Of a stretch of DNA of 64,000 nucleotides, positions 1,968-64,000 are shown one piece after another. Under the pieces are notes generated by a model. It made no database searches and was not told the origin of the DNA. It saw only the letters and a list, made by a program, of their open reading frames with translations. Where the stretch lies: positions 28,010-92,009 of the forward strand of contig JAQBRI010000009.1 in assembly GCA_028286585.1 (NCBI GenBank), written 5' to 3'. Made by a program: the position numbers and the translations under genes. How positions within the stretch are numbered: position 1 is the first letter of the stretch; each line of letters opens with the position of its first letter. Source of the stretch: Candidatus Kaiserbacteria bacterium. GTDB taxonomy: Bacteria; Patescibacteriota; Minisyncoccia; Phycocordibacterales; UBA2100.

Positions 1968-1985
1968 TACATTTGCTTAACTGTA

Positions 1986-2648: not shown

Positions 2649-2664
2649 TTAACCTTTTCTTTGT

Positions 2665-3432
2665 ATGATTTCAACACAAATTCTCCTGGGTATCGGTATT
2701 GTAGTCGTTTTGTATGCAATGAGCTGTATTCGAATTTTGCAGCAGTATCAGCGTGGCGTCATCTTTACGCTCGGTAAATTTACCGGAGTGCGAGATGCTG
2801 GGTTTCAATTACTTTTTACTCCATTCCAAACGATGACTCGTATATCGCTTCGCACCGTCACAATGCAAATTCCATCACAAAAAATAATTACAAAAGATAA
2901 CGTATCGATAGATATTGCAGCAGTCGCTTATTACAAAATTTCTGATCCAGAAAAGTCAGTTATAGCGATCGAAGACGTATACGGTGCAATCAATCAAATC
3001 AGTCAAACAACCGTTCGCAACGTAATTGGCCGATTCAGTCTTGATCAGCTGCTTGCAGAAACGGGCAAAATAAATGAACAGATCAAAACAGTTATCGATG
3101 TACATACCGAGGCGTGGGGCGTTTCGGTTACTGCGGTAGAAATAAAAGACATAACTCTTCCCGACAACATGCAGCGTGCCATGGCCAAAGAAGCCGAGGC
3201 AGAGCGTGAGCGCCGAGCAAAGATTGTTGCAGCCGAAGGAGAGTTTCAGGCTGCGAGTAAACTTGCCGATGCCGCAGACGTGATTAGTAAGCACCCTGTT
3301 GCACTGCAGCTGCGAACGCTCCAGACGATGGCAGAAATCGCAACAGAGAAAAATTCTACTATTATCTTCCCTGCTCAATTTATGAGTACGGTACAAGATG
3401 CATTTGCGACAATCGCAAAGGACCAAAAGTAG
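2665..3432 (+). CDS. SPFH/band-7 (stomatin/prohibitin/HflC-like) membrane protein
   Basis: N-terminal TM helix, then QRGVIFTLGKF..AVAYYKISDPEKSV..AMAKEAEAERERRAKIVAAEGE typical of SPFH domain plus coiled-coil. Confidence 0.8.
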   Translation: MISTQILLGIGIVVVLYAMSCIRILQQYQRGVIFTLGKFTGVRDAGFQLLFTPFQTMTRISLRTVTMQIPSQKIITKDNVSIDIAAVAYYKISDPEKSVIAIEDVYGAINQISQTTVRNVIGRFSLDQLLAETGKINEQIKTVIDVHTEAWGVSVTAVEIKDITLPDNMQRAMAKEAEAERERRAKIVAAEGEFQAASKLADAADVISKHPVALQLRTLQTMAEIATEKNSTIIFPAQFMSTVQDAFATIAKDQK

Positions 3433-3445
3433 TTGTCATTATCAA

Positions 3446-3474
3446 GCCCCGCACTTCGCGGGGCTTTTTGTTTT
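3446..3474 (+). terminator. Rho-independent terminator after SPFH gene
   Basis: GCCCCGC-acttc-GCGGGGC stem-loop followed by TTTTTGTTTT. Confidence 0.7.
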
Positions 3475-50900: not shown

Positions 50901-53900
50901 CCGCCGCCGGTACCTCCAGTTCCTGCTACTCCGCCTGCATGCCCTCCTGTTCCCAATGTTCCGTCTCCGCCATTTCCACCTGCGCCTCCCGTTCCGCCAC
51001 TTCTTCCGCTTGCGGTAAGACTACCAATAACGATGTCATTAATAAGGACTCCTGAGTTATCGCCAACAAGTCCACCGATGTATTCGGCACCGCCAACTCC
51101 ACCGATACCTCCGGTCCCTCCCGTTGCACCGGTGCCTCCGGCAATATTTCCCGAAGCACCAGCGGCACCTCCCGCTCCCGCGCCACCCGCGGCTCCTCCC
51201 ACAACACTAATAGAAGTAATTGTGTATGTTACGTCTCGAATGATTCCAGTATTGAAACCCATGATGCCTCCGCCCGCAGCAAGTCCGCCGGTACCACCGG
51301 CACCTCCTGCGCCGCCCGCTCCACCAATTGCTCCGGCTGTACTGCCGCCGGCACCACCCACTCCACCTGTGACGCCAGTACCTCCGGCACCTCCCGTTGA
51401 AGAAATAGTTCCAGTAGTATTTGGAAGACTGATTGTTGTTCCTAGGACACTATCGTTACCAATCACTCCTCCTGCGTATGACGCACCACCGACTCCTCCT
51501 GCACCTGATGTAATTCCCGCAGCTCCTGCAACACCAGCGCCCGATGTTCCAGGAGTTCCGGCAAGTCCACCATTTCCCGCAGCTCCGCCAAGAGCAACAG
51601 CATTGCCCGCAGCATATGAATCAGGACTTACGACCGCTGCATTAAATCCAACAAGGCCGCCCGCAGCGGCAAGTCCTCCGGCTTCGCCACTCAATCCGGC
51701 GACACCTCCCGTTGTACCAGCCGATCCGCCGGCAAACGCACCCGAAGAATTTCCTCCGTTTCCGGTTGTCGCTCCCGCCGCTCCTACTCCACCGGTTGCA
51801 AGTGCGTTACCTGATGCGTGCGAACCATTTTGAATTATTCCGTTTGTCGTATTAAAACCGACGAGTCCGCCCGCGTACGCAAGACCTGCGGCGTTTGATG
51901 CTGCAGCACTAGCCGAAGTATTTCCTCCAGCGCCGCCTGTTGTACCAGCTCCACCATTTCCTCCGCTGCCGCCGGCACCTCCCGCCCCGCCCGTCGCTGA
52001 GGCATTGCCTGTTGCGTACGAACCATTAATTACTCCACTACTATTTCCCGCGAGTCCTCCTGCGTACGCTGCCTTACCCAAAGCAACAGCAGCGCCTGCG
52101 CCGCCCGCAGCACCAGTGCCTCCGACACCTCCGTTACCACCGCTTCCAGTTACACCCGCGGTTGAAGTTGCGTTAATAGTCGCGTGTGATCCCAAAATGA
52201 CACCGCTTGTTGAATTGTTTGCGACGAGTCCGCCGGCGTATGCAAACCCGCCAAGCGAAACACTTGTTCCGCCAACTCCACCAACTCCGCCCAAAGCACC
52301 ACTTCCACCTGTGCCCCCTGCTCCACCATTTGCGCCTATTCCACTTGCTCCACCTTGTGAGATTACAGAACCGGATTCTATATATGCATTTATTATTGTC
52401 GAAGTATTCAAGCCGACGAGACCACCAGCAAACGAGTCCCCACCCGCGCCAGCAGTTCCCCCTGTTGCACCCACCGCACCAACATGTGATGACCCTCCTG
52501 CTGATCCGTTTCCAGCAACACCCGCTGCTCCACCATTTTTTCCAGTTGATCCGGTTGCAACAATACTTCCGGACGCGTATGAATTTATTATTTCGTTTAA
52601 GTTGTTACCCACGAGTCCGCCCGCGTATGCAATAGCACCAGCGCCACCGTTTCCGCCAAGTCCACCTGCTGCTGCAGTACCCGAGTTAAACGTTGCAGTT
52701 GTAGCGCCTCCCGCACCACCTGCACCAGCATTTCCTGGCGTGCCTCCTACAGATGTGACATTGCCCGTTGAGTATGAAGTGGTTCGAATGATACCGCCGT
52801 TTTGTCCGACAAGACCTCCAGCCGTACTGATACCACCCGCGCCACCGTTGCCTCCGGTCGCTCCAACTCCACCAATCGCATTTGTTCCGCCGGTGCCTCC
52901 TGCACCACCCACTCCGCCAATGCCACCAGTTCCTCCGGTTACTGTCGTGCTACCGACCGCATAACTTGTAGTGACTGTTCCCAATGAAATGATACCAACG
53001 AGTCCTCCACCAAATGCGGCACCTCCTGCACCTCCCGTTCCACCCAATGCTCCAGCTCCACCTGTTGTACTTGCTGCTCCAGTTCCACCGGCACCTCCTG
53101 CACCTCCAATTCCGCCCGTGCCTCCAAGAGAATTAACGGTGCCCGTTGCGTAGGAAGTTAAAATTTCTCCAGTCGTCAAAAATCCAACCAAGCCTCCAAC
53201 ATACGCAATACCTCCGACAGCTCCTGTTCCTCCGGTAATGCCGGCCAAACTTGTACCACCCGCGCCACCTGCTGCTGCAGCACCGCCCGCGCCTGCTGTG
53301 CCGCTCACGTTCCCTGTTGAAAAATCATTGGTCAATGTTGATCCAGTGTTGTTTCCTACAAATCCGCCCGCATACACAATACCCCCCGCTGTTGCGGTAC
53401 CCGCAGCTCCGGCAAGTGCACCGGTGCCGCCCGCACCCCCTGCTCCTGCTGCACCTCCTGCGCCCGCAACACCTGTAACTGATCCAATAGTGTAATTACT
53501 ATCAGTAATTGTGAGTGCATTATTTCCAGCAAGTCCTCCAACATACAGAATTGCACCTGCTCCTCCAATACCACCCGCAAGACCGGCGAGTCCGGTGAGT
53601 CCTGTAACTCCGTTTGCTCCGGCACCTCCTGCGCCGCCGGTTCCATTTACAATATTTTGTGCACTCGATGTTTGAATGATTCCTGTATTACTTCCCACGA
53701 GTCCGCCGGCATATGTTGAAAGCACGTTTGCAGATCCGCCGGTGCCCGATGCACCGCCCGCACCTGACGTTCCACTTGAACCTTTGGTACCGCCCGCGCC
53801 TCCCGTGCCGCCAACTCCACCCGTGCCGCCAACAACAGTCACTAATCCAGTATTTGAAAAAGATGAAATAATTATTCCCGAGTTAAGACCAACAAGTCCT

Positions 53901-56818
53901 CCCGAATATGCTGCGCCTCCTGCGCCGCCTGCTGCTCCTCCTCCGCCTGTTCCTCCTATGTGTGCAGTTCCAAGAGATGCGTCACCTCCAGTTCCACCAA
54001 CTTGTCCAACTTTTCCCGTTGACCCAGTTGCAGTAACGGCGCCTGTCGCAAAGACCGCTGTTGTCGTACCAGTAATAATACCGCCAAGGTTATTTTGTCC
54101 AACGAGTCCGCCCGCATATGCTATAGCACCTGCTCCACCTACTCCGCCTGCACCACCAGTTGCTGCAGTGAGCGTAGTTGCAACAGCAGAAGCGCCGGCA
54201 GTTGCGCCAGCCGAACCATTGCCCGGTGTTCCTCCGGTTGATTGCACGACGCCTGTTGCGTTACTGCCCGTTTGAATTATTCCCAAGTTGTTTCCGACAA
54301 GTCCTCCGACATACGAAACACCGCCGGCTCCACCTGTGCCGCCGGCGCCTCCTGCTCCACCAATTGCAGCACCGCCTCCAGCACCACCTACGCCCGCAGT
54401 GCCGGCTGCTCCGCCCAATCCGCCGGTTCCGGTTACTGTTCCTGTTGCGGTAACAGAAGTCAGGATTCCTGCATTCACCCATCCGGCAAGGCCACCAACA
54501 TAATCAATACCTCCCGCTGCTGCAAGACCAACAGCTCCGCCTGCGCCTCCAATACCTGTTCCAGCATTAGCACCTCCGGCACCACTATTTCCAGAAGCAC
54601 CTCCTGCGCCTCCCGTTCCTATAACATTTACACCACTCGTTGCAGCTGTAATATTTCCTTGTTGAGAATAACCAACGACTCCACCAACGTAGACTGTTCC
54701 TCCCAATGCTGCCGCATTCGAAACACTTGCTCCGCCCGCGCCTGCCGTAGTCGCGCCGCTCGTTGTGTTTCCGCCTGCTGCCGCATTACCTGCTGCGCCT
54801 CCTGCACCTCCTACACCTGTTACATTTCCAGAAACACTTACGTTTGAAATCGTACCAATGTTGTATCCGACCAGTCCTCCCACATACATAGTTGCTGCAG
54901 CAGTTCCTGCCGTACCGGTTCCTCCAGCAGTTGGTGTCGTACCTGCAGTTCCAGCAGTTCCAGCGGTACCGGCAACACCCGCCGTACTTGTTGCACTAAT
55001 CAACTCGCCCGAGAGAATAACGTTTTTGATAGTGTTGTTAGAAAAACCAAAAAGACCAACATAGTTGAGCGTTGTCGTACTTATAAAAAGATTACTGATG
55101 GTAAAGTTTGCACCATCAAAGATTCCACTAAAGTTGGTTGTGTTATCGCCTATCGGCACAAAGCCTGCACCCAAGTTCCATCCCGATGTTACCGTCGCAT
55201 TAATATTATTATTAAGTTTGTATGAGTTGGTAAGTCCGGTTCGAATACCCTGCAAACCATATACGTCGTACGTAATAAAAGGATCGGTACTCACGCCAAT
55301 GCCGGTATATCGTCTAAAGGTTCCCGCTGTTACCGAAAAGTTTCCCGTCGCAGCAAATGTATTGGTGCCGGGATTGTTTGCAACAAAAGTTGCGGCTGAT
55401 GATTGCACATAATTTCCCGACAAACCTCCAGCGTTCGAAATCGTAAGACTCGCATTTTGTGTAATGGTACCAGTGTAGCCGGCGATCGTGAGCGATCCAA
55501 TAGTAAAAGCAGTATCAATGTTTGATGCGTTTGATCCTGTATCAAATATCACATCGGTGTTTACATCAGGAGTAGAAGCACCGGACGCGCCGTTAGATGT
55601 TGCCGACCAGCTTCCGGTCGAGCTCCACAAAGCGCCCGAAGCACCAACCCAGTATCGTGTCGTCGGGTCGACGACATAATCAATATCAACATTTCCAATA
55701 ATCTTAAGATCAAACTCGTCGGTCGGAGTTTGAAGATTGGTCAAAAGAATACGGTACTTTCCATCATGATCAATTGCATCAAACGTGCCGACAAGTACAC
55801 CATCAAGTGTGTACACTTCTACGCGCACCGATGCACCATCGTGTGACCGAGCATACAACGTAATGTCTTTTGTATTGTCGAGCAGCTGTGCAAACGTAAC
55901 GCGCACAAACTGTCCGTCAGAAATATTTGCATACTGCTGGTCTTGCGATTGCAAGAGTGGATACACATCGCCAATTGTATTTTTGTTTGCATCAAGTTGC
56001 AGTGCCTTCGAAATATAAATAATGGTAAATGTCTGAGTCGACAAGTGCGGCACGATCCACGCAACATGATCTATGTATCCGTTACCATCGTCATCAAACG
56101 ATTGAAACTCCATAACTTGATTTGCATTGTTCTGCCAATTTATTTTTATCTGATCTTCTTGACCAACCTTAAATATTTCTGGAATAGCAGTTCGCACCGG
56201 TACGTTCAAGATTGGTGTTATTTCATTTTCAAGATCCGCGACAGATACGACAACTGTCTTGCCATTGTCGTTTGTGTGTTCGGTGATCGTAGGCACCTGC
56301 ACCAGAATCGGTAACGCAAGATCCGAAGTCGATGCAGTATTTTGTGAATTTAAAAAAGTATCAGTCGACGTTGCTGTCAAAATTGCAGCACCACCTGAAC
56401 TAGTAAAAATATTTTGCACAGAACTCGATGCGCTGGTGTTATCAGAAATTATTTCTGTCGAAGATGCTTGAGTAAATGAAGTATCAGTTGAAGTTGCAAT
56501 ACTACTGCTCGCATTAATTACTTCACTTTGTAAACTATCGGTAGAAGTCGTTGCGGGGGGCTGTATTTTAGCATCACCCGAATCCTGTGAAACTTGGCTT
56601 CCCTGCCCAACCTGGTCGTCGGAGCTGGTAGCGACTGGCGCAGGAGTAGTCGCATCCTCTGTTGAAGTTACGATTACAGTATTTGTATCAGTGACAATTG
56701 GCGTTGCATCATCAGCATGCGTCGATACAACGTTTCCAAATAATATTCCAAGTACAAAAAAAACCCCTACAACAATTTGTAGCGGTAATCGGAATATTCT
56801 AAAAAATGGCTCAATCAC
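38993..56818 (-). CDS. Giant (5941 aa) cell-surface protein: signal-anchor, Ser/Thr-rich stalk, beta-rich N-domain, about 3200 aa of Gly-rich GLUG-like repeats, 21 fibronectin type III domains, unknown C-domain, poly-Gly linker, C-terminal type-I dockerin
   Basis: Single uninterrupted ORF with GTG start. Repeated YVGGLVG.N.G.I..SYATGNV..GG.GG.GGAGG units. FN3 units PNAPTSVTAV.GNGQATITFTPPVSNGG.AIT.YTVSSNTGGFTATGGSSPITITGLTNGTTYTFTVTATN repeated 19 times almost verbatim plus 2 divergent. C-terminus DINGDGKVNGIDFSILLAYWK...DLNHDGKVDSVDFSILLYHWKK is two calcium-binding dockerin repeats (DxNxDGxVNxxD). Preceded by 16 consecutive Gly. Confidence 0.85.
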   Translation of the reverse strand: MIEPFFRIFRLPLQIVVGVFFVLGILFGNVVSTHADDATPIVTDTNTVIVTSTEDATTPAPVATSSDDQVGQGSQVSQDSGDAKIQPPATTSTDSLQSEVINASSSIATSTDTSFTQASSTEIISDNTSASSSVQNIFTSSGGAAILTATSTDTFLNSQNTASTSDLALPILVQVPTITEHTNDNGKTVVVSVADLENEITPILNVPVRTAIPEIFKVGQEDQIKINWQNNANQVMEFQSFDDDGNGYIDHVAWIVPHLSTQTFTIIYISKALQLDANKNTIGDVYPLLQSQDQQYANISDGQFVRVTFAQLLDNTKDITLYARSHDGASVRVEVYTLDGVLVGTFDAIDHDGKYRILLTNLQTPTDEFDLKIIGNVDIDYVVDPTTRYWVGASGALWSSTGSWSATSNGASGASTPDVNTDVIFDTGSNASNIDTAFTIGSLTIAGYTGTITQNASLTISNAGGLSGNYVQSSAATFVANNPGTNTFAATGNFSVTAGTFRRYTGIGVSTDPFITYDVYGLQGIRTGLTNSYKLNNNINATVTSGWNLGAGFVPIGDNTTNFSGIFDGANFTISNLFISTTTLNYVGLFGFSNNTIKNVILSGELISATSTAGVAGTAGTAGTAGTTPTAGGTGTAGTAAATMYVGGLVGYNIGTISNVSVSGNVTGVGGAGGAAGNAAAGGNTTSGATTAGAGGASVSNAAALGGTVYVGGVVGYSQQGNITAATSGVNVIGTGGAGGASGNSGAGGANAGTGIGGAGGAVGLAAAGGIDYVGGLAGWVNAGILTSVTATGTVTGTGGLGGAAGTAGVGGAGGGAAIGGAGGAGGTGGAGGVSYVGGLVGNNLGIIQTGSNATGVVQSTGGTPGNGSAGATAGASAVATTLTAATGGAGGVGGAGAIAYAGGLVGQNNLGGIITGTTTAVFATGAVTATGSTGKVGQVGGTGGDASLGTAHIGGTGGGGAAGGAGGAAYSGGLVGLNSGIIISSFSNTGLVTVVGGTGGVGGTGGAGGTKGSSGTSGAGGASGTGGSANVLSTYAGGLVGSNTGIIQTSSAQNIVNGTGGAGGAGANGVTGLTGLAGLAGGIGGAGAILYVGGLAGNNALTITDSNYTIGSVTGVAGAGGAAGAGGAGGTGALAGAAGTATAGGIVYAGGFVGNNTGSTLTNDFSTGNVSGTAGAGGAAAAGGAGGTSLAGITGGTGAVGGIAYVGGLVGFLTTGEILTSYATGTVNSLGGTGGIGGAGGAGGTGAASTTGGAGALGGTGGAGGAAFGGGLVGIISLGTVTTSYAVGSTTVTGGTGGIGGVGGAGGTGGTNAIGGVGATGGNGGAGGISTAGGLVGQNGGIIRTTSYSTGNVTSVGGTPGNAGAGGAGGATTATFNSGTAAAGGLGGNGGAGAIAYAGGLVGNNLNEIINSYASGSIVATGSTGKNGGAAGVAGNGSAGGSSHVGAVGATGGTAGAGGDSFAGGLVGLNTSTIINAYIESGSVISQGGASGIGANGGAGGTGGSGALGGVGGVGGTSVSLGGFAYAGGLVANNSTSGVILGSHATINATSTAGVTGSGGNGGVGGTGAAGGAGAAVALGKAAYAGGLAGNSSGVINGSYATGNASATGGAGGAGGSGGNGGAGTTGGAGGNTSASAAASNAAGLAYAGGLVGFNTTNGIIQNGSHASGNALATGGVGAAGATTGNGGNSSGAFAGGSAGTTGGVAGLSGEAGGLAAAGGLVGFNAAVVSPDSYAAGNAVALGGAAGNGGLAGTPGTSGAGVAGAAGITSGAGGVGGASYAGGVIGNDSVLGTTISLPNTTGTISSTGGAGGTGVTGGVGGAGGSTAGAIGGAGGAGGAGGTGGLAAGGGIMGFNTGIIRDVTYTITSISVVGGAAGGAGAGGAAGASGNIAGGTGATGGTGGIGGVGGAEYIGGLVGDNSGVLINDIVIGSLTASGRSGGTGGAGGNGGDGTLGTGGHAGGVAGTGGTGGGGGVVYIGGLAGQGNGNIASSSSSGGTITVTLGGSGGVGGTGGTGGAGGSGSGRNGTGGTGGAGGVAGPIYSGGAIGLNSLADVIIESLSSSDDVTITEGSGGAGGAAVAGTNGAVGGTGGAGGGGGALNFGAYAGGLEGFNSGTGQSINNSRASGNITVTGGAGGAGAVGGAGGSGVTNSITGGAGAVGGIGGAGGFANGGGLLGFTNTNVFIGNSFTSGNVTVLAGVGGAAGNGGAGGAGGTASAGGAGATGGAAGLGGASYAGGLVAAAAASGGNIATSSSTGIIRGTSGAGGASGSGGAGGAGGSASLGGAGGNGAVGGGGGVNYTGGLVGDSPTTIQSSFHTTGAVSAFSGAGGAAGAGGTAGASGNISAGTAAAGGAGASGGVAGAVNVGGLVGRNNTVAGIINNSYATSDVNATGGSGGAGGVGGAGGDGTLATNHLGGTGGVGGAGGAGGGLVAGALQAGGLVGQNFVGTITNSYSQTGTVTVTGSAGGASAQGGAGGVGTGTALYGIAGAGGAGGAGGGVYVGGLVGYSIGVIQTSYSKTALNVTGGAGQNGTAGRSGAAGGGAAGSAGGAGGASSLIHVGGLVGNNASEIIASYASVDAGSGKGNISVAGGAMGNGANGGAGGSGLAAGSAGGAGGVGGVGGAGGGTFVGGLAGFNSAAGIITTSYSDTIAISGTEQTAGTGGIGGAGGTGVGAFAGGTGTAGGAGGAGSARSYGGLVGDNLGTIQNNSYSSISFSVTGGTGGTGGVGGAGGTSGSTIASGIAAAGGAGGAGGAGGVTYGGGLVGRINATTQTLQILNSYATGNATVTGGTGGTGGAGGVGGDGSTGTVTHAGSAGALGGSAGIGGDGNAGGLVGYTNVTSGIVNYSFDYATGNASSTGGNAGTAGTSGNGGASRTTVAGGAGGGAVLAAAGGSGFAGGLIGLNFVTTGGQSDIVNSYATGAVSATGGIGSTGNTGGVGANGAASSVGGAGGAGGIGGAGGDGNAGGLAGFTGATTGANNVLTSYATGNIVTSTSGTGGNGGSAGASGTSGSAAVGAATGGGGTSGAGGAAYAGGLVGRTSATASNNLIITSSYSTDNVIANGGTSGNGAAGVIGGAGGSGSIGGTGGLGGATGVGGAAYAGGLVAFNFGTIQGNSYATGNATSTSGTAGTPGAGAAGGASGSVSGSTAASGGAGGAGGAGGAAYVGGLIAHNTAIGVVLNSFALGSVVSIAKNGATGATGGAGGDGSLGTSAHVGGTGGTGGAGGIGGASYSGGLIGNNVNALNTIATSYAIGASVTGTSGVGGSGGTGGIGGLPGAAGVGGAGGAGGAAVSGGVLYTGGLIGFNDGTVLSGSYASTTVLGSAGAGGVGGTGGAGVAGGIATAANGATGGAGGSAGAAGVGGIAYAGGFNGYNNTGRTIKDSYANSSVTVTGGAGGVGGLGGNGAAGGAGIVAGTGGTGGIAGARTAGGVGGIAYGGGFVGQNNGGTISTSYGTGAVNVNGSAGGVGGAGGVGGNGGAGGPTGAGGIGGAMGATAAGGAGGAAYAGGLVGQNASGSTVLSSWSSGNVSLVGGAGASAGLSGTVSTGGAGGTLAGGAGGASVAGGNGGAGGASFAGGLMGADLATGTFNTSYSSGNVSITGGNGGNGAVGGKGGNGGVGGSGGSGNGGAGATGGTGGTGGVGGDVTGGGLVGQNTGVITNTYARGNVTITAGTPGTGAIGGAGGNAGAAGGGVAGVNGTGATGGAGGAGGNAYAGGLFGSNNAVITNTYATGVPTGTKTSGATGGTGGAAGTGGTGGAAGASGATGAAALQYVGGIVGNPIGGSYVSDYWDNVTSGKSNGVGNGADPAGMTGTTTTALKTQATYTNWDFVSPVWAITPGTTYAYLNYQTVPNAPTSVTAVPGNGQATITFAPPVNSGGSPITNYTVSSNTGGFTATGGSSPITITGLTNGTTYTFTVTATNASGTSISSGTSNAVTPATAPGAPTIGTATRGNGQATITFTPPVSNGGTAITTYTVSSNTGGFTATGGSSPITITGLVNGTTYTFTVTATNSAGTSSPSGTSNSVVPATVPGAPTGVSAVRGDTQATVSFTPPVNNGGSAITTYTVTSNVGGFTGTGSGSPIVVTGLTNGISYSFTVTATNAVGTSTASIASNSVIPATAPGAPTSVTATGGNGQATITFTPPVSNGGSAITTYTVSSNTGGFTATGGSSPITITGLVNGTTYTFTVTASSALGTSTPSSTSNSVVPATVPDAPTIGTATRGNTQATITFTPPVSNGGSAITGYTVTSNTGGFTATGGSSPITVTGLTNGTAYTFTVTATNSVGTSTASNATNSATPATIPDAPTSVIGTAGNGQVTISFTPGNTGGSPITLYTVSSNTGGFTTSGGSSPITLIGLTNGTAYTFTVTATNAVGTSASSSASSSVTPATVPDAPTSVSAVRGDTQATISFTPPVNNGGSAVTTYTVSSNVGGLTATGGSSPITITGLTNGTIYTFTVTATNSAGTSTASGTSNAITPAGVPSAPTSVTAVAGNGQATISFTPGNNNGSSISIYTVSSNTGGFTATGGSSPITVTGLTNGTAYTFTVTETNAIGTSTNSGTSNTITPATAPGAPTSVSAVAGNGQATVSFTPPVSNGGSAITTYTVSSNTGGFTATGGSSPITITGLTNGTTYTFTVTGTNSAGTSTASATSNTVVPATTPNAPTIGTVTRGNGEVTVTFTPPVSNGGAAITTYTVSSNTGGFTATGGSSPITVTGLTNGTAYTFTVTATNSVGTSASSSASASVTPATIPDAPTSVTAVRGDTQATISFTPPVSNGGAAITTYTVTSNVGGFTATGGSSPITVTGLSNGVVYAFTVTANNSAGTSTSSGISNSITPAGVPSAPTSVTAVGGNGQATITFTPGSNNGSAITNYTVTSNIGGFNVTGISSPLTVTGLTNGTAYTFTVTATNGVGTSTSSTLSNSVTPATVPNAPTGAVATAGNGQATITFTPPVSNGGAAITTYTVTSNSGGFTASGSGSPITVTGLTNGTAYTFTVTATNGVGTSTSSTLSNSVTPATAPGAPTSVSAVAGNGQATITFTPPVSNGGSAITNYTVSSNTGGFTATGGGSPITITGLTNGTTYTFTVTASNNVGTSTASSASNSVTPVTVPNAPTAVTAVSGNGQATVSFTPGSNNGSAITNYTVSSNTGGFTASGGSSPITITGLTNGTTYTFTVTATNAVGTSTPSGTSNTVVPATTPNAPTSVTAVSGNGQATITFTPPVNNGGAAVTSYTVTSSSGGLTATGGSSPITVTGLTNGTTYTFTVTATNAAGTSTASSASNSVIPGTVPNSPTGISAVGGNGQATITFTPPVSNGGAAITNYTVSSNTGGFTATGGSSPITITGLTNGTTYTFTVTATNSIGTSTSSGTSNSVTPATVPDAPTSISAVAGNGQATVSFTPPVSNGGAAITNYTVSSNTGGFTATGGSSPITITGLVNGTTYTFTVTATNNVGTSTSSGTSNSVVPAGGPSAPTSVAAVGGDGTATITFSPPSFTGGSAITSYTVTSNIGNFTATGGSSPITVTGLTNGTAYTFTVTATNAIGTSISSAATNSVTPATVPDAPTNLAAAIADSSVNLTWSAPGFNGGSPITSYTVTSNGGVFSTTTNGTSATIQGLTNGTTYTFTVTATNAVGTSTSSGTSNAATPASVPGAPINLAAIVQDSSINLSWSAPISNGGSPVTDYVVEYKLSSGGTWSIFSDGISTTPTTMVTSLSNNNSYDFRISAKNLVGRGTTTIPVSATPGAPAQVLIQSFSGLTVPSIATAVRITNEGSIAYEYQYTWCVTDSATNSCGGGDDIFSSTAAKLIQPGANFDTTLSSTVPVIGTYWFHVAVQYGSASSSASQSFTAIAAPVQNPGNGGGGGGGGGGGGGGGDNSPPVATPAATTEVIGDINGDGKVNGIDFSILLAYWKTKPPFKNNKVDLNHDGKVDSVDFSILLYHWKK
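39205..39252 (-). repeat. (GGN)16 simple repeat encoding a poly-Gly linker before the dockerin
   Basis: Plus strand cctccgcctcccccacctcctccacctccgccaccgccacctcc; protein GNGGGGGGGGGGGGGGGGDN. Confidence 0.8.
39700..45265 (-). repeat. Tandem array of about 20 near-identical repeats of about 270-285 bp, each encoding one FN3 domain
   Basis: DNA visibly repeats: the triplet sequence ...gtaactgtaaatgtgtacgttgttccatttgtgagaccagtaattgtaattggtgaagagccacc... recurs at about 275-bp spacing through the region. Confidence 0.85.
45400..55000 (-). repeat. Degenerate tandem repeats (about 180-210 bp units) encoding Gly-rich GLUG-like modules; extreme strand compositional skew (coding strand GGN-rich)
   Basis: Plus strand is dominated by CCNCC/GCNCC runs (antisense of GGN codons), generating many spurious Pro/Ala-rich plus-strand ORFs. 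Confidence 0.8.
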
Positions 56819-58920: not shown

Positions 58921-59655
58921 ATGAGTGACCTGGATCTCTCTGCCGAGCTGAACGCCTTCATTGAGAAGGTAGGTGTCAAAAACGGTTTCGAGCTCAGTAA
59001 CCTGCCCGAGAACGCGCTGTTCGAAATTCATACGCGGAACAGCGTGTACACCATCGTCGTCCTCGATCCTCAAAACGGCGCCATCGCGCTTATGGGCTCA
59101 CGGCCTGATTACAAGGAACCCGACATCTTTGCCTTTTTCGGTTCATCCTTTGGGATGAGCACGTCGGTAACCAGAGTCGGCTGGGTTGGCATCGGTCTTC
59201 ATTTCCGTATGCGATCACTGGATGGTGGACTTTTCACGACCACCGAGGTCAAGCATTTCGTAATGCTCAATGATCCAAGCAAGGCGCTCAGTATCAGAAA
59301 GAGGGCGGAAGCGAAACGTCCTGACGCCCTGATACCTGAGACCGAAGATGAACTAGCTCTGTGGCAAAAGAATTTCGATAAAGAGATCGAGTCCAACTTC
59401 GCAGGAGAATATCTTCCAATCGTGCAGAAGTGGCTTGCCAAGTTCTGCATAAATGGCAAATGCAGGGCGGCGACATTCTTCTTTGCAGCCAAAAGCGCCG
59501 GCAGGCTCAAAGAGGCACTTCTTCTTATGCCTCGTCACTACAAAGAGCATTGGATGTACAAGCATCCAGATATTTGCGGTGACTTGATAACACCATCGGA
59601 CACCTACCAGTGGGAAAAGGCTTACAAGGAAGCGGGCATTCCAGCTCCCTCGTAA
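58921..59655 (+). CDS. Hypothetical protein (244 aa), compositionally GC-richer than neighbours
   Basis: ORF with codon usage visibly richer in G/C-ending codons (ctg, gag, ttc, aac); followed by two strong terminators. Confidence 0.45.
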   Translation: MSDLDLSAELNAFIEKVGVKNGFELSNLPENALFEIHTRNSVYTIVVLDPQNGAIALMGSRPDYKEPDIFAFFGSSFGMSTSVTRVGWVGIGLHFRMRSLDGGLFTTTEVKHFVMLNDPSKALSIRKRAEAKRPDALIPETEDELALWQKNFDKEIESNFAGEYLPIVQKWLAKFCINGKCRAATFFFAAKSAGRLKEALLLMPRHYKEHWMYKHPDICGDLITPSDTYQWEKAYKEAGIPAPS

Positions 59656-60571: not shown

Positions 60572-60598
60572 GTACTTAGGGACGGTCACCACCGTCCC
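60569..60598 (+). terminator. Rho-independent terminator after GNAT gene
   Basis: GGGACGGT-cacc-ACCGTCCC followed by TTTTTTTATTT. Confidence 0.75.
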
Positions 60599-60628
60599 TT
60601 TTTTATTTCTTAATATTATATTTGGCAA

Positions 60629-62635
60629 TTACTCTAAAACTTCTTGAACGATTCCTTGTACAGAATCACCTTCTTCAGGAATTATAGGTTGATGACTTTT
60701 GTTGGTACTTTTTGGTAACAAAATTCTGCGTCCATCTTTTTTGTCATACATTTTAATAGTCACGTTATCACCAAGCAATGCAACTACCCTATCACCAGTT
60801 TCTCCTTTTTCCGCAAATCTACACAGAACCAGATCTCCATCATTTATGCCTGCCAAGTCCATAGAATCCCCGTTCGCACGCAGTATAAAGTAAGTGGCAC
60901 CTGCCCTAAGTTTCGACTTTGGAACCATTATTTCATCTTCAATATTTTCTTCTCCGAGCAAGGGACTTCCGCACGGTGCCGAACCCACGATCGGCACTTG
61001 AACCATTGCAACCGTAATTGGAGATTTTATAGGTTGATACTCGTTATCTGATAAAACCGCCTGCTTATCGGAAAACATTGACGAAAAATATTTTCTTAAT
61101 TCCTCATCCACAACATAAACAAATGTGCCTTTTATTCCTCGTGTTAACAATGTCTTATAGATATTTGTAATATATCCCTTGAGTTCTTCAGGGTCCGATA
61201 TTGATCTCTTCCCGTTAATATCTTTGTATTTCTTTTCATCAATAATAATGCGTTTTGCTATTGGATCATATGAAAATTCAGGTCCTATGATTACGCCGGT
61301 GTAATTTAGATCATATCCCTGTACAGTGTGAATACATCCAACTTCATTTAGAGAGTTTTTTGAATTAACCCAATCTATATTCGTGCTATTCCAGGTAAGT
61401 TGTAAGCCATCAATCTCGATATCATGACCCGGTTTGTTTCCTTTTGTTTTCCACGACCAGGCATATCCTGCAACGAGACGCGCTAATTTATGCTCTGCGT
61501 CCTTGGTTTTGATATCTTCAACCATATCGCGAATTGAGTCGTACATTTTAAATTCATAGTTTGAAAATCGAGGCTGTTCTACATGACGGCCTTCAAGTAA
61601 ATTGTCTACGAATCGCAAATAATCTTCACCTGCATTGATACGCATCTGGCTTACCAATTCAAACTCTTTTGCATCAAGTTTAGAAAAATCTGTAGCTTGT
61701 ACGTCTCCCGGGACGACATTTTGTTTTTTGTCGTAGAAGAATATTTGTTTTTTAGAGCACTTCATTACCCAATCAAGCTGTGTACCTTCCTTTGCCAGGC
61801 CTAACGCACGATTCGTTTGATCATAGGAGCCAAAGTTTGCTAGATTTACTCTTCGTCGAAGCCTATGTGCTTCATCAACAATAAGTAAATCATATTCTTT
61901 TTTCACAACATCACTCGGTCCAATCACCATTTCGACCCCAAGACCTGGAACTCTTTTTACTACTCTTTGTAGTGTTGCTCGTAAACCTGTCATTGGAACA
62001 ACAAGGGCAATCTTAAGATGACTTGTTTCCGAGGTTTCCTTAAGATGTTTGAGCAAATACATTGCGAGTATCGATTTACCAGTACCCGGATTACCATGGA
62101 CGATATGGGTCGAAACTTTATTTGCTTTTATACTTTCCTCGAGTGCTGTTGCAACTTCAAGCTGATCTTCTGTAAGTGCTTTATATGGAGAGTACTTAAA
62201 AAACTCACTGTTTTTTATCGAATGTAAATCTTCTTTAACGAGCCCGAGTTCTTGTAGTTTTGGCCATATAACATCCAATTTGGCTTGATATTTTTCCTTT
62301 TCGAAATAGTTATGATTTATTAAACCACCATTCCCATTTTGCAGTTTAAATACACCATCAGCAGAAACATATTGGATAAGTAAGGATTCGAAATCAAAGG
62401 CAGAGGAAAGATTAAATTCTTCATCTGTAAGTACGTGGATTCTTTTTAAGCGACGTCTATTCTCATTAAGGTCGTAATGTTGTTTACTTCTTGAGTAAAG
62501 AGTGGTCGTCTGTCCAATATACATCTCACTACCATTTTCTTGGATGTATACGACTGGCCAATTTAGGCCATAGTGAAAATCTCTGAGTTTATCAAAGTCT
62601 TTGCGATCAAAGGGGAAAGTTTTGATCTCTACCAT
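60629..62635 (-). CDS. Three-domain fusion: N-terminal GIY-YIG-like nuclease motif, central DUF2075/SF1-helicase-like P-loop ATPase, C-terminal UmuD/LexA-type S24 self-cleaving peptidase domain
   Basis: PVVYIQENGSEMYIGQTTTLYSRSKQH (GIY..YIG..R..H). HIVHGNPGTGKSILAMYLL (Walker A), LLIVDEAHRL (Walker B/DEAH-like), CIHTVQGYDLNYTGVIIGPEF (SF1 motif VI-like, typical of DUF2075). C-terminal SAPCGSPLLGEENIEDEIMVPKSKLRAGATYFILRANGDSMDLAGINDGDLVLCRF...VTIKMYDKKDGRRILLP aligns with UmuD (QCG/[50 protein letters not shown]...FTVKKLQ), including the Cys-Gly cleavage site, Ser (GDSM) and Lys (TIKMY) dyad. Confidence 0.65.
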   Translation of the reverse strand: MVEIKTFPFDRKDFDKLRDFHYGLNWPVVYIQENGSEMYIGQTTTLYSRSKQHYDLNENRRRLKRIHVLTDEEFNLSSAFDFESLLIQYVSADGVFKLQNGNGGLINHNYFEKEKYQAKLDVIWPKLQELGLVKEDLHSIKNSEFFKYSPYKALTEDQLEVATALEESIKANKVSTHIVHGNPGTGKSILAMYLLKHLKETSETSHLKIALVVPMTGLRATLQRVVKRVPGLGVEMVIGPSDVVKKEYDLLIVDEAHRLRRRVNLANFGSYDQTNRALGLAKEGTQLDWVMKCSKKQIFFYDKKQNVVPGDVQATDFSKLDAKEFELVSQMRINAGEDYLRFVDNLLEGRHVEQPRFSNYEFKMYDSIRDMVEDIKTKDAEHKLARLVAGYAWSWKTKGNKPGHDIEIDGLQLTWNSTNIDWVNSKNSLNEVGCIHTVQGYDLNYTGVIIGPEFSYDPIAKRIIIDEKKYKDINGKRSISDPEELKGYITNIYKTLLTRGIKGTFVYVVDEELRKYFSSMFSDKQAVLSDNEYQPIKSPITVAMVQVPIVGSAPCGSPLLGEENIEDEIMVPKSKLRAGATYFILRANGDSMDLAGINDGDLVLCRFAEKGETGDRVVALLGDNVTIKMYDKKDGRRILLPKSTNKSHQPIIPEEGDSVQGIVQEVLE

Positions 62636-62637
62636 AT

Positions 62638-63003
62638 CTACAACTGTGTATACTTTGTGTGCCGCCCTTTGGCCTTTGCTACCGGGTATTTCTCACCATT
62701 TTTCTTCATCTTTTTTTCAAGTGCATCAGAAATATCAATTTTAAGATCATTACACATTAGCAGTACCCAATAGAATACATCGGCTAACTCTTCGGCAACA
62801 TCTTCTTTATTTGTCTTTATGTGTGCCTCCATTTCTTCTTTATTTTTCCATTGAAAATGTTCCATGACTTCGGCAGCCTCTAAAACCAAGGAAATGGCTG
62901 TGTCTTTTGGGTTATGAAATTGTTTCCAATCACGAGCGTCACGAAATGAGACCACGAGCTTTTTGAGCTCCGCAAGGCTCTTTTGGGTCTTTTTTGTCGT
63001 CAT
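62638..63003 (-). CDS. MazG-like nucleoside triphosphate pyrophosphohydrolase
   Basis: LEAAEVMEHFQW and EELADVFYWVLLMCNDLKIDISDALEKKMKKNGEKYP are the EExxE...ExxD all-alpha NTP-PPase (MazG) motifs; 121 aa. Confidence 0.7.
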   Translation of the reverse strand: MTTKKTQKSLAELKKLVVSFRDARDWKQFHNPKDTAISLVLEAAEVMEHFQWKNKEEMEAHIKTNKEDVAEELADVFYWVLLMCNDLKIDISDALEKKMKKNGEKYPVAKAKGRHTKYTQL

Positions 63004-63076
63004 AGATAGTCAAATAATACTCTTTTTATGAGATAAAGCTAAAGTGTATTCATAATGATGACTGACCCTATTTCTC

Positions 63077-64000
63077 CTAGTATTTCGTACCGATATATAT
63101 ACCGTAGGTACCATAGCATTGATATCCGCCCTTGCCTTTGTGGGGGCGCATGGACGAGTCATGATTATTTCGAGTGAAGCGTTTACCACAAACACCGCAC
63201 TTAAAGATATACTTTAACCCTCCAGAAAAACGTTGCCCTTGTGGACGAAGTGTACGGACAGTCTGCATACGGGGCGCTCTCGGGGCTTTCTCCGGTTTGT
63301 TTGGATCAAACAAGTATCGATCTTCCGGTATTTCACCCGACTTCGACAGTTCAATCGGATACTGCGGTATAAATTTCACATCTGTATTTTCCAGCGTTTC
63401 CACCTTGTCGGAAATGAAGCTACGCATCCCAGGTGGATTGGTGCCTCCACTTTTGTTGTACGCAAAAAAATACTCACGTTCGCTCCCGTCCCTCTTCTGC
63501 ATGTACTTGAGCGAGTACGGCTCCACAGTGCGGTCCGCACCGTTATAGCGGAAGCGCAGAAGCGTTTGGGTACGTGCTGCGTGCATAATAGTAGCGCGAT
63601 GATCAGCATTGAAATAGGCGAATTGGGCGAAGCCGCTGTCAGAATATCCTGCGAACAGCAGTTCTAGATCTGTGGTAAATGCGATGATTGCATCCTCGAC
63701 ACCAATTAAGAATTCCTTGGCACACACCACAGACTTTGCCCATTCCTGCCGATAGTAGTCAAAACCGGTTTTCAACAGGATGCTTTTGAGTACAAAAGGA
63801 TTTCGAGAGAAGATTGTTTTTTGTATTAGCGTGCGCATCACTTCTCCCCTGTCGAGGCTGCCACCCAACTTCTGAATGGAGTAAGCATAGTCAAAAAGAT
63901 CTGGCGCGTGCTGGCGCTGCATCATACATTTCAGCTTTGTGGCGATAATCTCTTCGAGCTTCATACAGCGAATAGTGCATGCCACCTCTTCCGCATCCGA
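63077..64000 (-). CDS. AbiEii/DUF1814-like nucleotidyltransferase-family protein (3' portion; ORF continues upstream beyond window end) with C-terminal Cys/His zinc-ribbon-like tail
   Basis: No stop between the listed Met (63985) and window end (SDAEE precedes it in frame). KLEEIIATKLKCMMQRQHAPDLFDYAYS resembles the conserved ExxxAEKLxAxxxR..xRDLYDL motif of AbiEii-type NTases. C-terminal CGVCGKRFTRNNHDSSMRPH. Confidence 0.35.
   Translation of the reverse strand, partial: SDAEEVACTIRCMKLEEIIATKLKCMMQRQHAPDLFDYAYSIQKLGGSLDRGEVMRTLIQKTIFSRNPFVLKSILLKTGFDYYRQEWAKSVVCAKEFLIGVEDAIIAFTTDLELLFAGYSDSGFAQFAYFNADHRATIMHAARTQTLLRFRYNGADRTVEPYSLKYMQKRDGSEREYFFAYNKSGGTNPPGMRSFISDKVETLENTDVKFIPQYPIELSKSGEIPEDRYLFDPNKPEKAPRAPRMQTVRTLRPQGQRFSGGLKYIFKCGVCGKRFTRNNHDSSMRPHKGKGGYQCYGTYGIYIGTKY

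What the first reader, a model, noticed from the sequence alone, without database searches (positions are those of the whole stretch)
60629..64000. Putative defense operon: AbiEii-like NTase - MazG-like NTP pyrophosphatase - GIY-YIG/DUF2075/S24 fusion protein
Three co-directional, tightly packed genes sit at the window edge. MazG overlaps the fusion gene by 1-4 bp. They combine modules recurrent in anti-phage or abortive-infection systems. These are a DUF1814/AbiEii-type nucleotidyltransferase (partial), a MazG-type NTP pyrophosphohydrolase (known from nucleotide-depletion defenses and from phage counter-defense), and a nuclease-ATPase. The locus follows a GC-atypical orphan gene and a GNAT gene, separated by strong terminators, so it looks like an accessory island. 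I do not recognise this three-gene combination as a named system.
Basis: partly seen in the sequence, partly recalled or inferred. Interest (0 to 1): 0.8.

Follow-up and report, generated by a model that had tools for sequence, protein, structure and literature searches.

The report
MazG plus nuclease-helicase-S24 candidate defence cassette
The end of this window carries a mobile two-gene cassette: a small nucleotide-destroying enzyme followed by a DNA-cutting helicase with a LexA-like self-cleaving tail.

Summary
The three minus-strand genes and all proposed domains are real. They are a 5'-truncated AbiEii nucleotidyltransferase, a MazG-like (DCTPP1-type) NTP pyrophosphatase, and a 668-aa fusion of GIY-YIG nuclease, Schlafen-group-3/DUF2075 SF1B helicase and LexA-type S24 autoprotease.

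They are not a three-gene system. In 80 genomes with a relative of the fusion protein, a MazG-like gene abuts it in 79, usually within -4 to +5 nt. An AbiEii gene abuts it in none.

The MazG + nuclease-helicase pair is a discrete mobile cassette:
- Its GC is 0.38 against a background of 0.44.
- Between Pedobacter and Flavobacterium species, DNA similarity stops at the cassette borders.
- Its neighbours are highly variable and often defence genes (SoFic, Cas3, DUF3427 type IV enzymes, dCTP deaminase, NB-ARC).

The S24 domain is present in about half of relatives and always keeps the Ser/Lys dyad and a Cys-Gly or Ala-Gly cleavage site.

Seen from the MazG side, close MazG homologues also sit upstream of other nucleases, including a second nuclease-DUF2075 type, a PD-T4-1-like protein and an NmeDI_C protein.

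PADLOC v2 has no named system for this pair, and no paper in the searchable library describes it. The closest validated kind is Nhi/Nhi-like. A defence function is inferred, not shown.

The parts
62638..63003 (-). MazG-like all-alpha NTP pyrophosphatase (121 aa), DCTPP1/RS21-C6 type. First gene of the conserved two-gene cassette.
   Evidence: Pfam PF12643 E=8e-19. PDB 4qgp E=7e-21 and DCTPP1 structures 6sqw/2a3q E~1e-17. Metal-binding E42, E45, E48, E72 and D75 are invariant in 73 homologues. A homologue is adjacent to the fusion gene in 79 of 80 loci.
60629..62635 (-). 668-aa fusion protein: GIY-YIG nuclease, SF1B (Schlafen group 3/DUF2075) helicase and LexA-type S24 autoprotease. Second gene of the cassette.
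   Evidence: More than 120 full-length homologues at 59-74% identity in Patescibacteria.
62321..62635 (-). GIY-YIG nuclease domain (about aa 1-105).
61106..62107 (-). SF1B helicase core (aa 177-510). Walker A is G181-PGTGK187 and Walker B is D254-E255-x-H257. The TRG motif at 498-500 is read as motif VI.
   Evidence: Pfam PF09848 E=4e-67. Invariant motifs. Top Foldseek hits are SLFN11, UPF1, RecD2, nsp13 and Dda.
60632..60994 (-). LexA-type S24 self-cleaving domain (aa 548-668) with Ser591 (GDSM) and Lys628 (VTIK).
   Evidence: Pfam PF00717 E=4e-20 and TIGR00498 E=1.5e-21. LexA C-terminal domain structures E~1e-15. 37% identity to E. coli LexA with the dyad aligned. Ser and Lys are conserved in 42 of 42 S24-bearing homologues.
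60968..60973 (-). Predicted self-cleavage site Cys555-Gly556 (UmuD-like Cys-Gly; aligns with LexA Ala84-Gly85).
   Evidence: Cys-Gly occurs in 31 homologues of the Patescibacteria type. The remaining 11 align as Ala or Ser followed by Ala, one column out of register; read by eye they carry Ala-Gly.
60578..60599 (.). G+C-rich hairpin between the convergent GNAT and fusion genes. Likely a bidirectional terminator closing the cassette.
63004..63076 (-). 73-nt AT-rich spacer upstream of MazG. No terminator or sigma-70-like promoter was detected, so read-through from the AbiEii gene cannot be excluded.
63077..64000 (-). 3' two-thirds (aa 166-472) of a 472-aa AbiEii-family nucleotidyltransferase with a WYL-like and Zn-ribbon C-terminal extension. 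An adjacent, independent gene that is not part of the cassette.
   Evidence: Absent from all 80 related loci. An 85% homologue lies in an unrelated context.

Best explanation
The functional unit is a horizontally mobile two-gene cassette at 60629-63003 on the minus strand. It consists of a DCTPP1-type MazG-like dNTP pyrophosphatase that is translationally coupled to a GIY-YIG nuclease-SF1B helicase. In this genome the helicase protein also carries a C-terminal LexA-type S24 autoprotease. It is most likely an anti-phage or anti-mobile-DNA system of the Nhi-like nuclease-helicase kind.

Shown:
- The pair is conserved across phyla.
- All catalytic motifs of the four modules are intact.
- The cassette moves as a block into variable, defence-rich neighbourhoods.
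- The S24 module is optional but always catalytically complete.

Inferred mechanism:
- The helicase translocates on and unwinds invading or replicating DNA, and the GIY-YIG domain cuts it.
- The MazG partner hydrolyses dCTP-type nucleotides, perhaps base-modified ones. This would starve phages of them, or keep them out of host DNA so that the nuclease does not attack self.
- The S24 tail holds the enzyme in check until RecA-ssDNA filaments (phage replication or DNA damage) stimulate cleavage at Cys555-Gly556.
- Cleavage would release a roughly 555-aa enzyme that resembles the natural 520-570-aa homologues without S24.

The AbiEii gene upstream is a separate AbiE-type module. Together the two make a small defence island.
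For: Pairing:
- MazG is adjacent in 79 of 80 genome loci spanning Patescibacteria, Bacteroidota, Firmicutes, Mycoplasmatota and one Woesearchaeota. The exception has only 48 nt upstream.
- Gaps between the two genes are mostly -4 to +5 nt.
- No third conserved gene exists. The 427 neighbours within three genes form 384 clusters, the largest with 5 members.

Mobility:
- Between Pedobacter and Flavobacterium species, DNA similarity covers only the cassette.
- Cassette GC is 0.381 against 0.440 +/- 0.011 for the background.

Defence context:
- Neighbours include SoFic, NYN, DUF3427/mREase_IV, Mrr, NERD, dCTP deaminase, PbeA and PDC candidates; Cas3 and NB-ARC; and a PLD-helicase-DUF3427 enzyme in four loci.

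Active sites:
- GIY-YIG, helicase, MazG, S24 dyad and cleavage site.

Architecture and partners:
- The nuclease + DUF2075 architecture equals that of the validated Nhi and Nhi-like defence proteins, with partial PADLOC hits to Nhi and AbiO.
- Close MazG homologues also precede a PD-T4-1-like NOV_C protein and an NmeDI_C protein.
Against: - There is no experimental evidence for defence. The family is not a named PADLOC v2 system.
- The enrichment of defence genes among neighbours was not tested against a genome-wide baseline. Many neighbours are ordinary genes such as TspO, YgjP, methyltransferases and glycosyltransferases.
- Conservation is unusually high for an immune gene, at 59-74% identity across Patescibacteria classes.
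- The MazG substrate, any MazG-helicase interaction and RecA-dependent cleavage are untested.
- The S24 part of the structural model has low confidence.
- MazG and helicase pairwise distances correlate only moderately, r=0.43.
Confidence: 0.55

Rival explanations
1. One reading: AbiEii nucleotidyltransferase, MazG and the fusion protein form one three-gene defence operon that works together.
For: The three genes are co-directional. A 73-nt spacer with no detectable terminator lies between AbiEii and MazG, so co-transcription in this genome is possible.
Against: An AbiEii homologue is found in 0 of 80 loci that carry the pair. An 85%-identical AbiEii homologue sits next to umuDC-like genes with no MazG or DUF2075 gene. 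GC differs sharply, 0.481 against 0.381. In a 68% relative of the fusion protein, the same position holds a SoFic-like gene.
Confidence: 0.04
2. An accessory DNA-repair and nucleotide-pool-sanitation module under SOS-like control. MazG removes non-canonical dNTPs before incorporation. The UvrC-like GIY-YIG nuclease with its helicase excises them, or processes stalled forks, after incorporation. The S24 tail ties activity to RecA-sensed damage.
For: - DCTPP1 relatives are house-cleaning enzymes by established knowledge, and the homology is shown.
- The closest GIY-YIG structure by identity is UvrC.
- S24 is the hallmark of SOS proteins LexA and UmuD.
- Sequence conservation is high.
- Patescibacteria carry umuDC-like genes.
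Against: - The phyletic distribution is patchy, with cassette-only similarity between congeners and atypical GC.
- Neighbours are variable and defence-rich, including Cas3, DUF3427 enzymes, SoFic and NB-ARC.
- Half the family lacks S24.
- MazG homologues also pair with restriction-type nucleases.
Confidence: 0.2
3. A selfish toxin-antitoxin-like addiction cassette. The nuclease-helicase is a toxin and MazG neutralises it, directly or by destroying an activating nucleotide. Any benefit to the host is incidental.
For: The gene order is tight and translationally coupled, with the small gene first. The cassette is mobile. It sits among TA-type neighbours such as AbiEii, Fic and SocA_Panacea. There is a precedent in mazEFG, where MazG modulates toxicity (established knowledge).
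Against: MazG keeps a fully conserved catalytic site, which argues for enzymatic rather than stoichiometric neutralisation. In two loci (L079, L086) MazG lies downstream of the helicase gene, and in L064 it is on the opposite strand. This reading also overlaps with abortive-infection defence rather than excluding it.
Confidence: 0.12

Closest known systems
Nhi (S. epidermidis SERP2475) and the 'Nhi-like' protein of Millman et al. 2022
   Same: Both have an N-terminal nuclease fused to a DUF2075/PF09848 SF1B helicase and occur in defence contexts. PADLOC Nhi and AbiO models hit the helicase 1A region (E=1.5e-13 and 5e-12).
   Different: - The nuclease here is GIY-YIG, not PD-(D/E)XK.
- Only residues 146-379 match the Nhi model.
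- Nhi is described as a single-enzyme system (title of the paper read), whereas here a MazG-like gene is adjacent in 79 of 80 loci.
- Here there is a C-terminal S24 autoprotease, which is not among the features the Nhi paper lists.
LexA / UmuD (Peptidase S24 self-cleaving SOS proteins)
   Same: The C-terminal domain is 37% identical to the E. coli LexA C-terminal domain. It has the Ser-Lys dyad and a cleavage-site loop. The Cys-Gly site matches UmuD (from memory) and aligns with Ala84-Gly85 of LexA.
   Different: The N-terminal partner is a 545-aa nuclease-helicase instead of a winged-helix DNA-binding domain or the UmuD arm. Regulation by RecA is unproven. The domain has been repeatedly gained or lost within the family.
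DCTPP1 / RS21-C6 and archaeal MazG-like pyrophosphatase 4qgp
   Same: Same all-alpha MazG-like fold family, with the EXXE...EEXXD metal site and the C-terminal KYP...KY motif.
   Different: This is a prokaryotic 115-121-aa stand-alone protein that is genetically locked to nucleases. The substrate is unknown.
Human SLFN11/SLFN14 helicase domain (Schlafen group 3)
   Same: It is the best structural match of the helicase core (7zel, Foldseek E=5e-9) and belongs to the same Pfam family. The logic is also analogous: a nuclease-linked SF1 ATPase acting on stressed or foreign replication.
   Different: There is no Schlafen (AlbA_2) RNase domain. The bacterial 'Schlafen' defence papers found concern that RNase domain, not this helicase. 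Sequence identity is about 10%.
Type IV modification-dependent restriction enzymes (DUF3427 enzymes; PD-T4-1; PD-T4-3)
   Different: No recognisable modified-base reader domain (EVE, SRA, DUF3427) was detected in the fusion protein. Modification dependence is only a hypothesis.

Membership tests
GIY-YIG nuclease superfamily | GIY...YIG beta-hairpin motifs with conserved Arg, Glu and Asn catalytic residues | tested here: met
   VVY30...MY39-I-G41, R49, H53, E83 and N100 are invariant in 30 sequences from four phyla. Pfam PF01541 is only E=1e-3, below its cut-off.
GIY-YIG nuclease superfamily | GIY-YIG alpha/beta fold | tested here: met
Schlafen group 3 / DUF2075 SF1B helicase (PF09848) | Full-length match above the Pfam gathering score, plus Walker A and Walker B motifs (the TRG motif at 498-500 is read as motif VI) | tested here: met
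   227 bits against a cut-off of 24, covering profile positions 4-354 of 354. GxPGTGK(S/T), DExH and TRG are invariant. Top structural matches are SLFN11, UPF1, RecD2 and Dda.
Peptidase S24 (LexA/UmuD type) | Ser-Lys catalytic dyad and an Ala-Gly or Cys-Gly cleavage site in the preceding loop | tested here: met
   S591 and K628 are conserved in 42 of 42 S24-bearing homologues. The cleavage site is Cys-Gly in 31 of them. The other 11 align as Ala or Ser followed by Ala, one column out of register, and read as Ala-Gly by eye. The residues align to LexA A84-G85, S119 and K156. Pfam gives 72 bits against a cut-off of 23.
Peptidase S24 (LexA/UmuD type) | RecA-nucleofilament-stimulated self-cleavage | not testable with these tools
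   This needs biochemistry.
MazG-like / DCTPP1 family (PF12643) | Pfam match above cut-off and the EXXE...EXXD metal-binding motif | tested here: met
   68 bits against a cut-off of 27. E42, E45, E72 and D75 are invariant. Homology to DCTPP1 structures is E~1e-17.
MazG-like / DCTPP1 family (PF12643) | Preference for dCTP or 5-modified dCTP | not testable with these tools
   Substrate specificity cannot be read from the sequence here.
AbiEii (DUF1814) toxin of AbiE type IV TA/Abi systems (neighbouring gene) | PF08843 match with the nucleotidyltransferase GG...DxD motif | tested here: met
   The full-length P0121 scores 84 bits against a cut-off of 22.5. The LKGGNAL and SADLDF motifs lie in the part outside the window. 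The in-window fragment scores 25 bits.
AbiEii (DUF1814) toxin of AbiE type IV TA/Abi systems (neighbouring gene) | Cognate AbiEi antitoxin gene immediately upstream | tested here: inconclusive
   The upstream region lies outside the window and the contig could not be retrieved. In the 85% homologue locus L088, the upstream gene is a 353-aa protein with no Pfam hit.
Nhi anti-phage nuclease-helicase (PADLOC model) | Full-length match to the Nhi HMM | tested here: not met
   Only residues 146-379 match profile positions 176-374 of 470, E=1.5e-13.
Nhi anti-phage nuclease-helicase (PADLOC model) | N-terminal PD-(D/E)XK nuclease | tested here: not met
   The N-terminal domain is GIY-YIG. A sister group paired with the same MazG does carry a PD-(D/E)XK-like motif.
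Any named system in PADLOC-DB v2.0.0 | Full-length hits of the component proteins to the models of one system | tested here: not met
   MazG gives no hit. The fusion protein gives only partial hits to Nhi, AbiO, PDC-S41 and PDC-S14. DefenseFinder and later PADLOC releases could not be run.
Defence-island resident (operational criterion for candidate immune genes) | Recurrent location next to known defence genes in unrelated genomes | tested here: inconclusive
   Many such neighbours were found, but no genome-wide background frequency was computed.

The most novel reading that the evidence does not exclude
DCTPP1-type MazG pyrophosphatases may be a general, previously unrecognised partner subunit for restriction-type nucleases. 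The partners seen here are GIY-YIG-DUF2075, a second nuclease-DUF2075 type with a PD-(D/E)XK-like motif, a NOV_C/PD-T4-1-like protein and NmeDI_C-like proteins. This would define a class of immunity in which self and non-self are separated by cleansing the dNTP pool of modified cytosine-type nucleotides rather than by methylating the genome. In the S24-bearing variants, a Schlafen-like helicase-nuclease would be unleashed by RecA-triggered self-cleavage. That would be a bacterial counterpart of the SLFN11 response to replication stress.
Probability: 0.2. Interest if true: 0.85.

Novelty: new variant of a known kind. Interest (0 to 1): 0.6.

Why it matters
If the cassette is an immune system, four things follow.
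- It is one of the few candidate systems abundant in Patescibacteria (CPR).
- It links dNTP-pool chemistry directly to a DNA-cutting effector.
- It shows the LexA-type self-cleaving domain being reused as a switch on an effector enzyme rather than on a repressor.

It also gives a tractable bacterial model for the helicase half of human Schlafen proteins. The catalytic residues and the cleavage site are all identified, so the mechanism is directly testable by mutagenesis.

Tried and rejected
- Exact-sequence look-ups of the window's own proteins, and of their 100% matches, found no contig. The 5' end of the AbiEii gene and its upstream partner could therefore not be read. Only the full protein sequence (P0121) was recovered.
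- Ten literature searches found no paper describing the pair. The combinations included DUF2075+MazG, Schlafen+MazG, PF numbers, MazG+Nhi, and S24+anti-phage. The 'bacterial Schlafen' papers concern the RNase domain.
- A sequence search of PDB with the full-length profile found only LexA/UmuD and no helicase.
- The phage collection holds no convincing phage-borne copy. The one 39% hit is an 'unverified' faecal contig that also carries an oxidoreductase gene, so it is probably bacterial.
- I considered that homologues without S24 might encode S24 as a separate downstream gene. Neighbour clustering does not support this. A stand-alone LexA-like gene lies within three genes in only 3 loci.
- I considered a third conserved component and rejected it.
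- I considered membership of the PADLOC candidate PDC-S41. Only weak partial hits were found.


Full report
**What is in the window**

Three ORFs lie on the minus strand at the right-hand end.
- 63077->64000 is open to the window edge.
- 62638-63003 encodes 121 aa.
- 60629-62635 encodes 668 aa.

The 121-aa gene ends at TAG 62640-62638. Two bases later the ATG of the 668-aa gene begins at 62635, so the genes are tightly coupled but do not overlap. A 73-nt AT-rich spacer with no detectable terminator separates the truncated gene from the 121-aa gene. A G+C-rich hairpin at 60578-60599 closes the locus against the convergent GNAT gene. The sequence is from a Candidatus Kaiserbacteria (Patescibacteria/CPR) metagenome-assembled genome. 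Matches at 100% identity carry the locus tags JWO50_739, 740 and 741 on a 94,973-bp contig.

**Domains**

*The 668-aa fusion protein.*
- Pfam gives SLFN-g3_helicase (formerly DUF2075) at residues 177-510, E=4e-67.
- Pfam gives Peptidase_S24 at residues 548-656, E=4e-20.
- Pfam gives only a sub-threshold GIY-YIG hit at residues 32-63, E=1e-3.

I tested the GIY-YIG call separately.
- In an alignment of N-termini from Patescibacteria, Bacteroidota, Firmicutes, Mycoplasmatota and an archaeon, Y30, Y39, G41, R49, H53, E83 and N100 are invariant.
- The profile's best PDB hits are the GIY-YIG enzymes T4 EndoII, I-TevI and UvrC.

The helicase core has invariant Walker A, DExH and TRG motifs. In the full-length model (pLDDT 74.5) it resembles SLFN11, UPF1, RecD2, nsp13 and Dda, which makes it an SF1B enzyme.

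The C-terminal domain is 37% identical to the C-terminal domain of E. coli LexA. Cys555-Gly556 aligns with the Ala84-Gly85 cleavage site, Ser591 with Ser119 and Lys628 with Lys156. From memory, Cys-Gly is the site used by UmuD.

*The 121-aa protein.* It is a MazG-like (PF12643) enzyme, closest to the archaeal pyrophosphatase 4qgp and to mammalian dCTP pyrophosphatase 1. Its EXXE...EEXXD metal site is invariant in 73 homologues.

*The truncated gene.* It is the last 307 residues of a 472-aa AbiEii-family protein. The full-length protein scores Pfam E=1.8e-23. The GG...DxD nucleotidyltransferase motif lies in the missing part.

**What is conserved together**

In the best 80 loci, a MazG-like gene is adjacent in 79. 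The exception has only 48 nt of upstream sequence. No locus has an AbiEii homologue.
- The MazG gene is almost always directly upstream, with a gap of -4 to +5 nt.
- In two Firmicutes-like loci it is directly downstream, and in one it is divergent.
- The 427 genes within three positions of the pair fall into 384 clusters, none larger than five. There is no third component.
- An 85%-identical AbiEii homologue lies beside umuDC-like genes, with no MazG or helicase gene.

The conserved unit is two genes, and the AbiEii gene is an independent neighbour.

**Mobility and context**
- The cassette has GC 0.381. The first 39 kb of the window average 0.440 +/- 0.011, and no 2.4-kb background window is as low.
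- AbiEii (0.481), GNAT (0.485) and the orphan gene (0.51) deviate in the opposite direction, so the region is a compositional mosaic.
- Among three Pedobacter and three Flavobacterium species, nucleotide similarity of 74-91% covers only the two genes, and the flanks are unrelated. The one exception is L071 and L072, which also share an upstream flank.
- Immediate neighbours belong to 120 different Pfam families.
- They include SoFic-like Fic proteins, NYN, Mrr, NERD, PLD nucleases, type IV DUF3427 enzymes, dCTP deaminase, PbeA and several PADLOC candidate families.
- In a Clostridiales genome the pair lies between a Cas3-type nuclease/helicase gene and a PLD-helicase-DUF3427 enzyme. In a Mycoplasmatota genome it lies next to an NB-ARC NTPase.
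- The PLD-helicase-DUF3427 gene recurs next to the pair in four unrelated loci, three of which also carry a small neighbouring protein that I read by eye as Nudix-like.
- Bacillus cereus-group megaplasmids carry a related cluster.

This is the pattern expected of a mobile defence cassette. I did not compute a statistical background for it.

**The S24 module**

42 of 82 family members examined carry S24. All 42 keep the Ser and Lys residues. The cleavage site is Cys-Gly in 31 members of the Patescibacteria type. The other 11 align one column out of register and read as Ala-Gly by eye.

On a neighbour-joining tree of the nuclease-helicase core, proteins with and without S24 are interleaved. The domain has therefore been lost or gained repeatedly. 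Proteins without S24 are mostly 518-571 aa long. Cleavage at residue 555 would thus generate a product much like a natural S24-less enzyme. I read S24 as an optional, removable regulatory tail.

**Reciprocal view from MazG**

Starting from close MazG homologues (57-76% identity), I examined four look-ups and 80 metagenomic loci. The gene directly downstream was:
- the GIY-YIG-DUF2075 type in 15 loci;
- a second DUF2075 type in 21 loci. It has a different N-terminal domain with a D...ELK motif, PD-(D/E)XK-like by eye. Three of these also carry the same S24 tail;
- a roughly 368-aa protein family in 5 loci. One relative carries the NmeDI_C domain;
- a 323-372-aa group in 4 loci. One is a NOV_C/DUF3883 protein matching the validated anti-T4 protein PD-T4-1 (E=2e-24);
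- RadC in 3 loci;
- assorted single cases in 8 loci.

The remaining 24 loci could not be scored. So 36 of 56 scorable partners are nuclease-DUF2075 helicases, and most of the rest are restriction-type nucleases. The MazG-like enzyme behaves as a shared module that accompanies DNA-cutting effectors.

**Mechanism**

Shown:
- four intact catalytic modules;
- strict pairing of the two genes;
- mobility of the cassette as a block.

Inferred:
- The system is a DNA-targeting immune system of the Nhi-like kind.
- MazG acts on the dNTP pool. Mammalian DCTPP1 is known to prefer 5-modified dCTP (established knowledge, not tested here). The recurring company of modification-dependent-type nucleases makes modified cytosine nucleotides an attractive substrate. 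MazG could starve phages that build modified DNA, or keep such bases out of host DNA so that the nuclease spares self.
- S24 couples activation to RecA-ssDNA filaments.

The main rival is an SOS-linked repair and pool-sanitation module. It fits the enzymology but not the patchy, cassette-like distribution or the defence-rich neighbourhoods. An addiction-module reading overlaps with abortive-infection defence rather than excluding it.

**Comparison with known systems**

PADLOC v2 gives no hit for MazG and only partial hits for the fusion protein (Nhi and AbiO on residues 146-379, PDC-S41, PDC-S14). The second DUF2075 type is also only weakly matched.

Nhi and the Nhi-like protein are single proteins combining a nuclease with DUF2075. 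The present cassette differs in its nuclease fold, in its near-universal MazG partner and in the optional S24 domain.

Only ten papers in the searchable library mention DUF2075. None mentions it together with MazG. One notes DUF2075 genes beside DUF3427-DUF3883 enzymes and fusions of DUF2075 to GIY-YIG.

I therefore file this as a new variant of a known kind. Three caveats apply:
- Subscription-journal papers were not searchable.
- Newer DefenseFinder and PADLOC releases could not be checked.
- The family is moderate in size, with 460 clusters at 50% identity and E<=1e-30.

**Verdict**

The two-gene cassette is near-certain. The defence function is about 55-60% likely, and the mechanistic details are hypotheses. 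Interest is 0.6.

Noticed in passing
window 38993-56818 (minus strand): A single 5,941-aa ORF with a signal-like N-terminus, hundreds of Gly/Ala/Thr-rich repeats, about 40 tandem fibronectin-III-like 'PxAPT...TNGTxYTFTVTATN' modules and a dockerin-like C-terminus. It raises local GC to 0.54-0.60 with strong negative GC skew. Presumably a giant surface or adhesion protein of this CPR bacterium.
   Followed up: no
L101:4339-6201, L125:4358-6682 and 19 other metagenomic loci (L096-L166): A sister family has a different N-terminal domain (D...ELK motif, PD-(D/E)XK-like by eye) fused to the same DUF2075 helicase. It is also directly preceded by a close MazG-like homologue. In L112, L125 and L144 it also carries the same C-terminal S24 domain with an APCG site.
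   Followed up: partly
L093:3866-4981, L092:3850-4956, L115:4318-5382: Close MazG-like homologues (about 70% identical) are followed by small restriction-type proteins instead of a helicase. These are an NmeDI_C-domain protein, a 368-aa protein with no Pfam hit, and a NOV_C/DUF3883 protein matching the anti-T4 defence protein PD-T4-1.
   Followed up: partly
L027:1459-4380, L065:7700-10621, L084 about 1017-3458, L089:3459-6557: A roughly 975-1030-aa PLD nuclease-SF2 helicase-DUF3427 protein (type IV restriction-like) recurs beside the cassette. In L027, L065 and L084 there is also a small neighbouring protein that I read by eye as a Nudix-type dNTP pyrophosphohydrolase. This would be a second 'pyrophosphatase + nuclease' pairing analogous to the MazG pair.
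   Followed up: partly
window 63077-63700 (minus strand; C-terminal 200 aa of the AbiEii protein): The AbiEii-family protein has a long C-terminal extension with a weak WYL-like match (PADLOC WYL E=3e-6) and a Cys-rich zinc-ribbon-like end (CGVCGKRF...HKGKGGYQCYG). The 472-aa architecture is conserved at 58-85% identity across many CPR lineages.
   Followed up: partly
L088:6494-8367: A CPR contig carries a umuDC-like pair, a Y-family polymerase (IMS) gene plus a 187-aa S24 protein. This suggests that S24/RecA-type damage signalling exists in these reduced genomes.
   Followed up: no
window 58921-59655 (plus strand): A 244-aa ORF has no Pfam, NCBIfam or PADLOC hit and the highest GC in the neighbourhood (0.51 against 0.44). 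It lies between a small conserved gene and the GNAT gene.
   Followed up: partly
L041 609-1217, L043 3719-4891, L045 1718-3259: In three loci whose helicase protein lacks the S24 tail, a stand-alone LexA-like gene (HTH plus S24) lies within three genes of the cassette. This could be chance or a split version of the regulation.
   Followed up: no
L087 (Bacillus sp. PGP15 plasmid p1, 256179-269756): A Bacillus cereus-group megaplasmid carries a cluster of a Nudix-type pyrophosphohydrolase, an HNH endonuclease, a MazG-like pyrophosphohydrolase, a 686-aa GIY-YIG protein and a 560-aa GIY-YIG-DUF2075 protein. It is a duplicated or expanded form of the cassette.
   Followed up: partly
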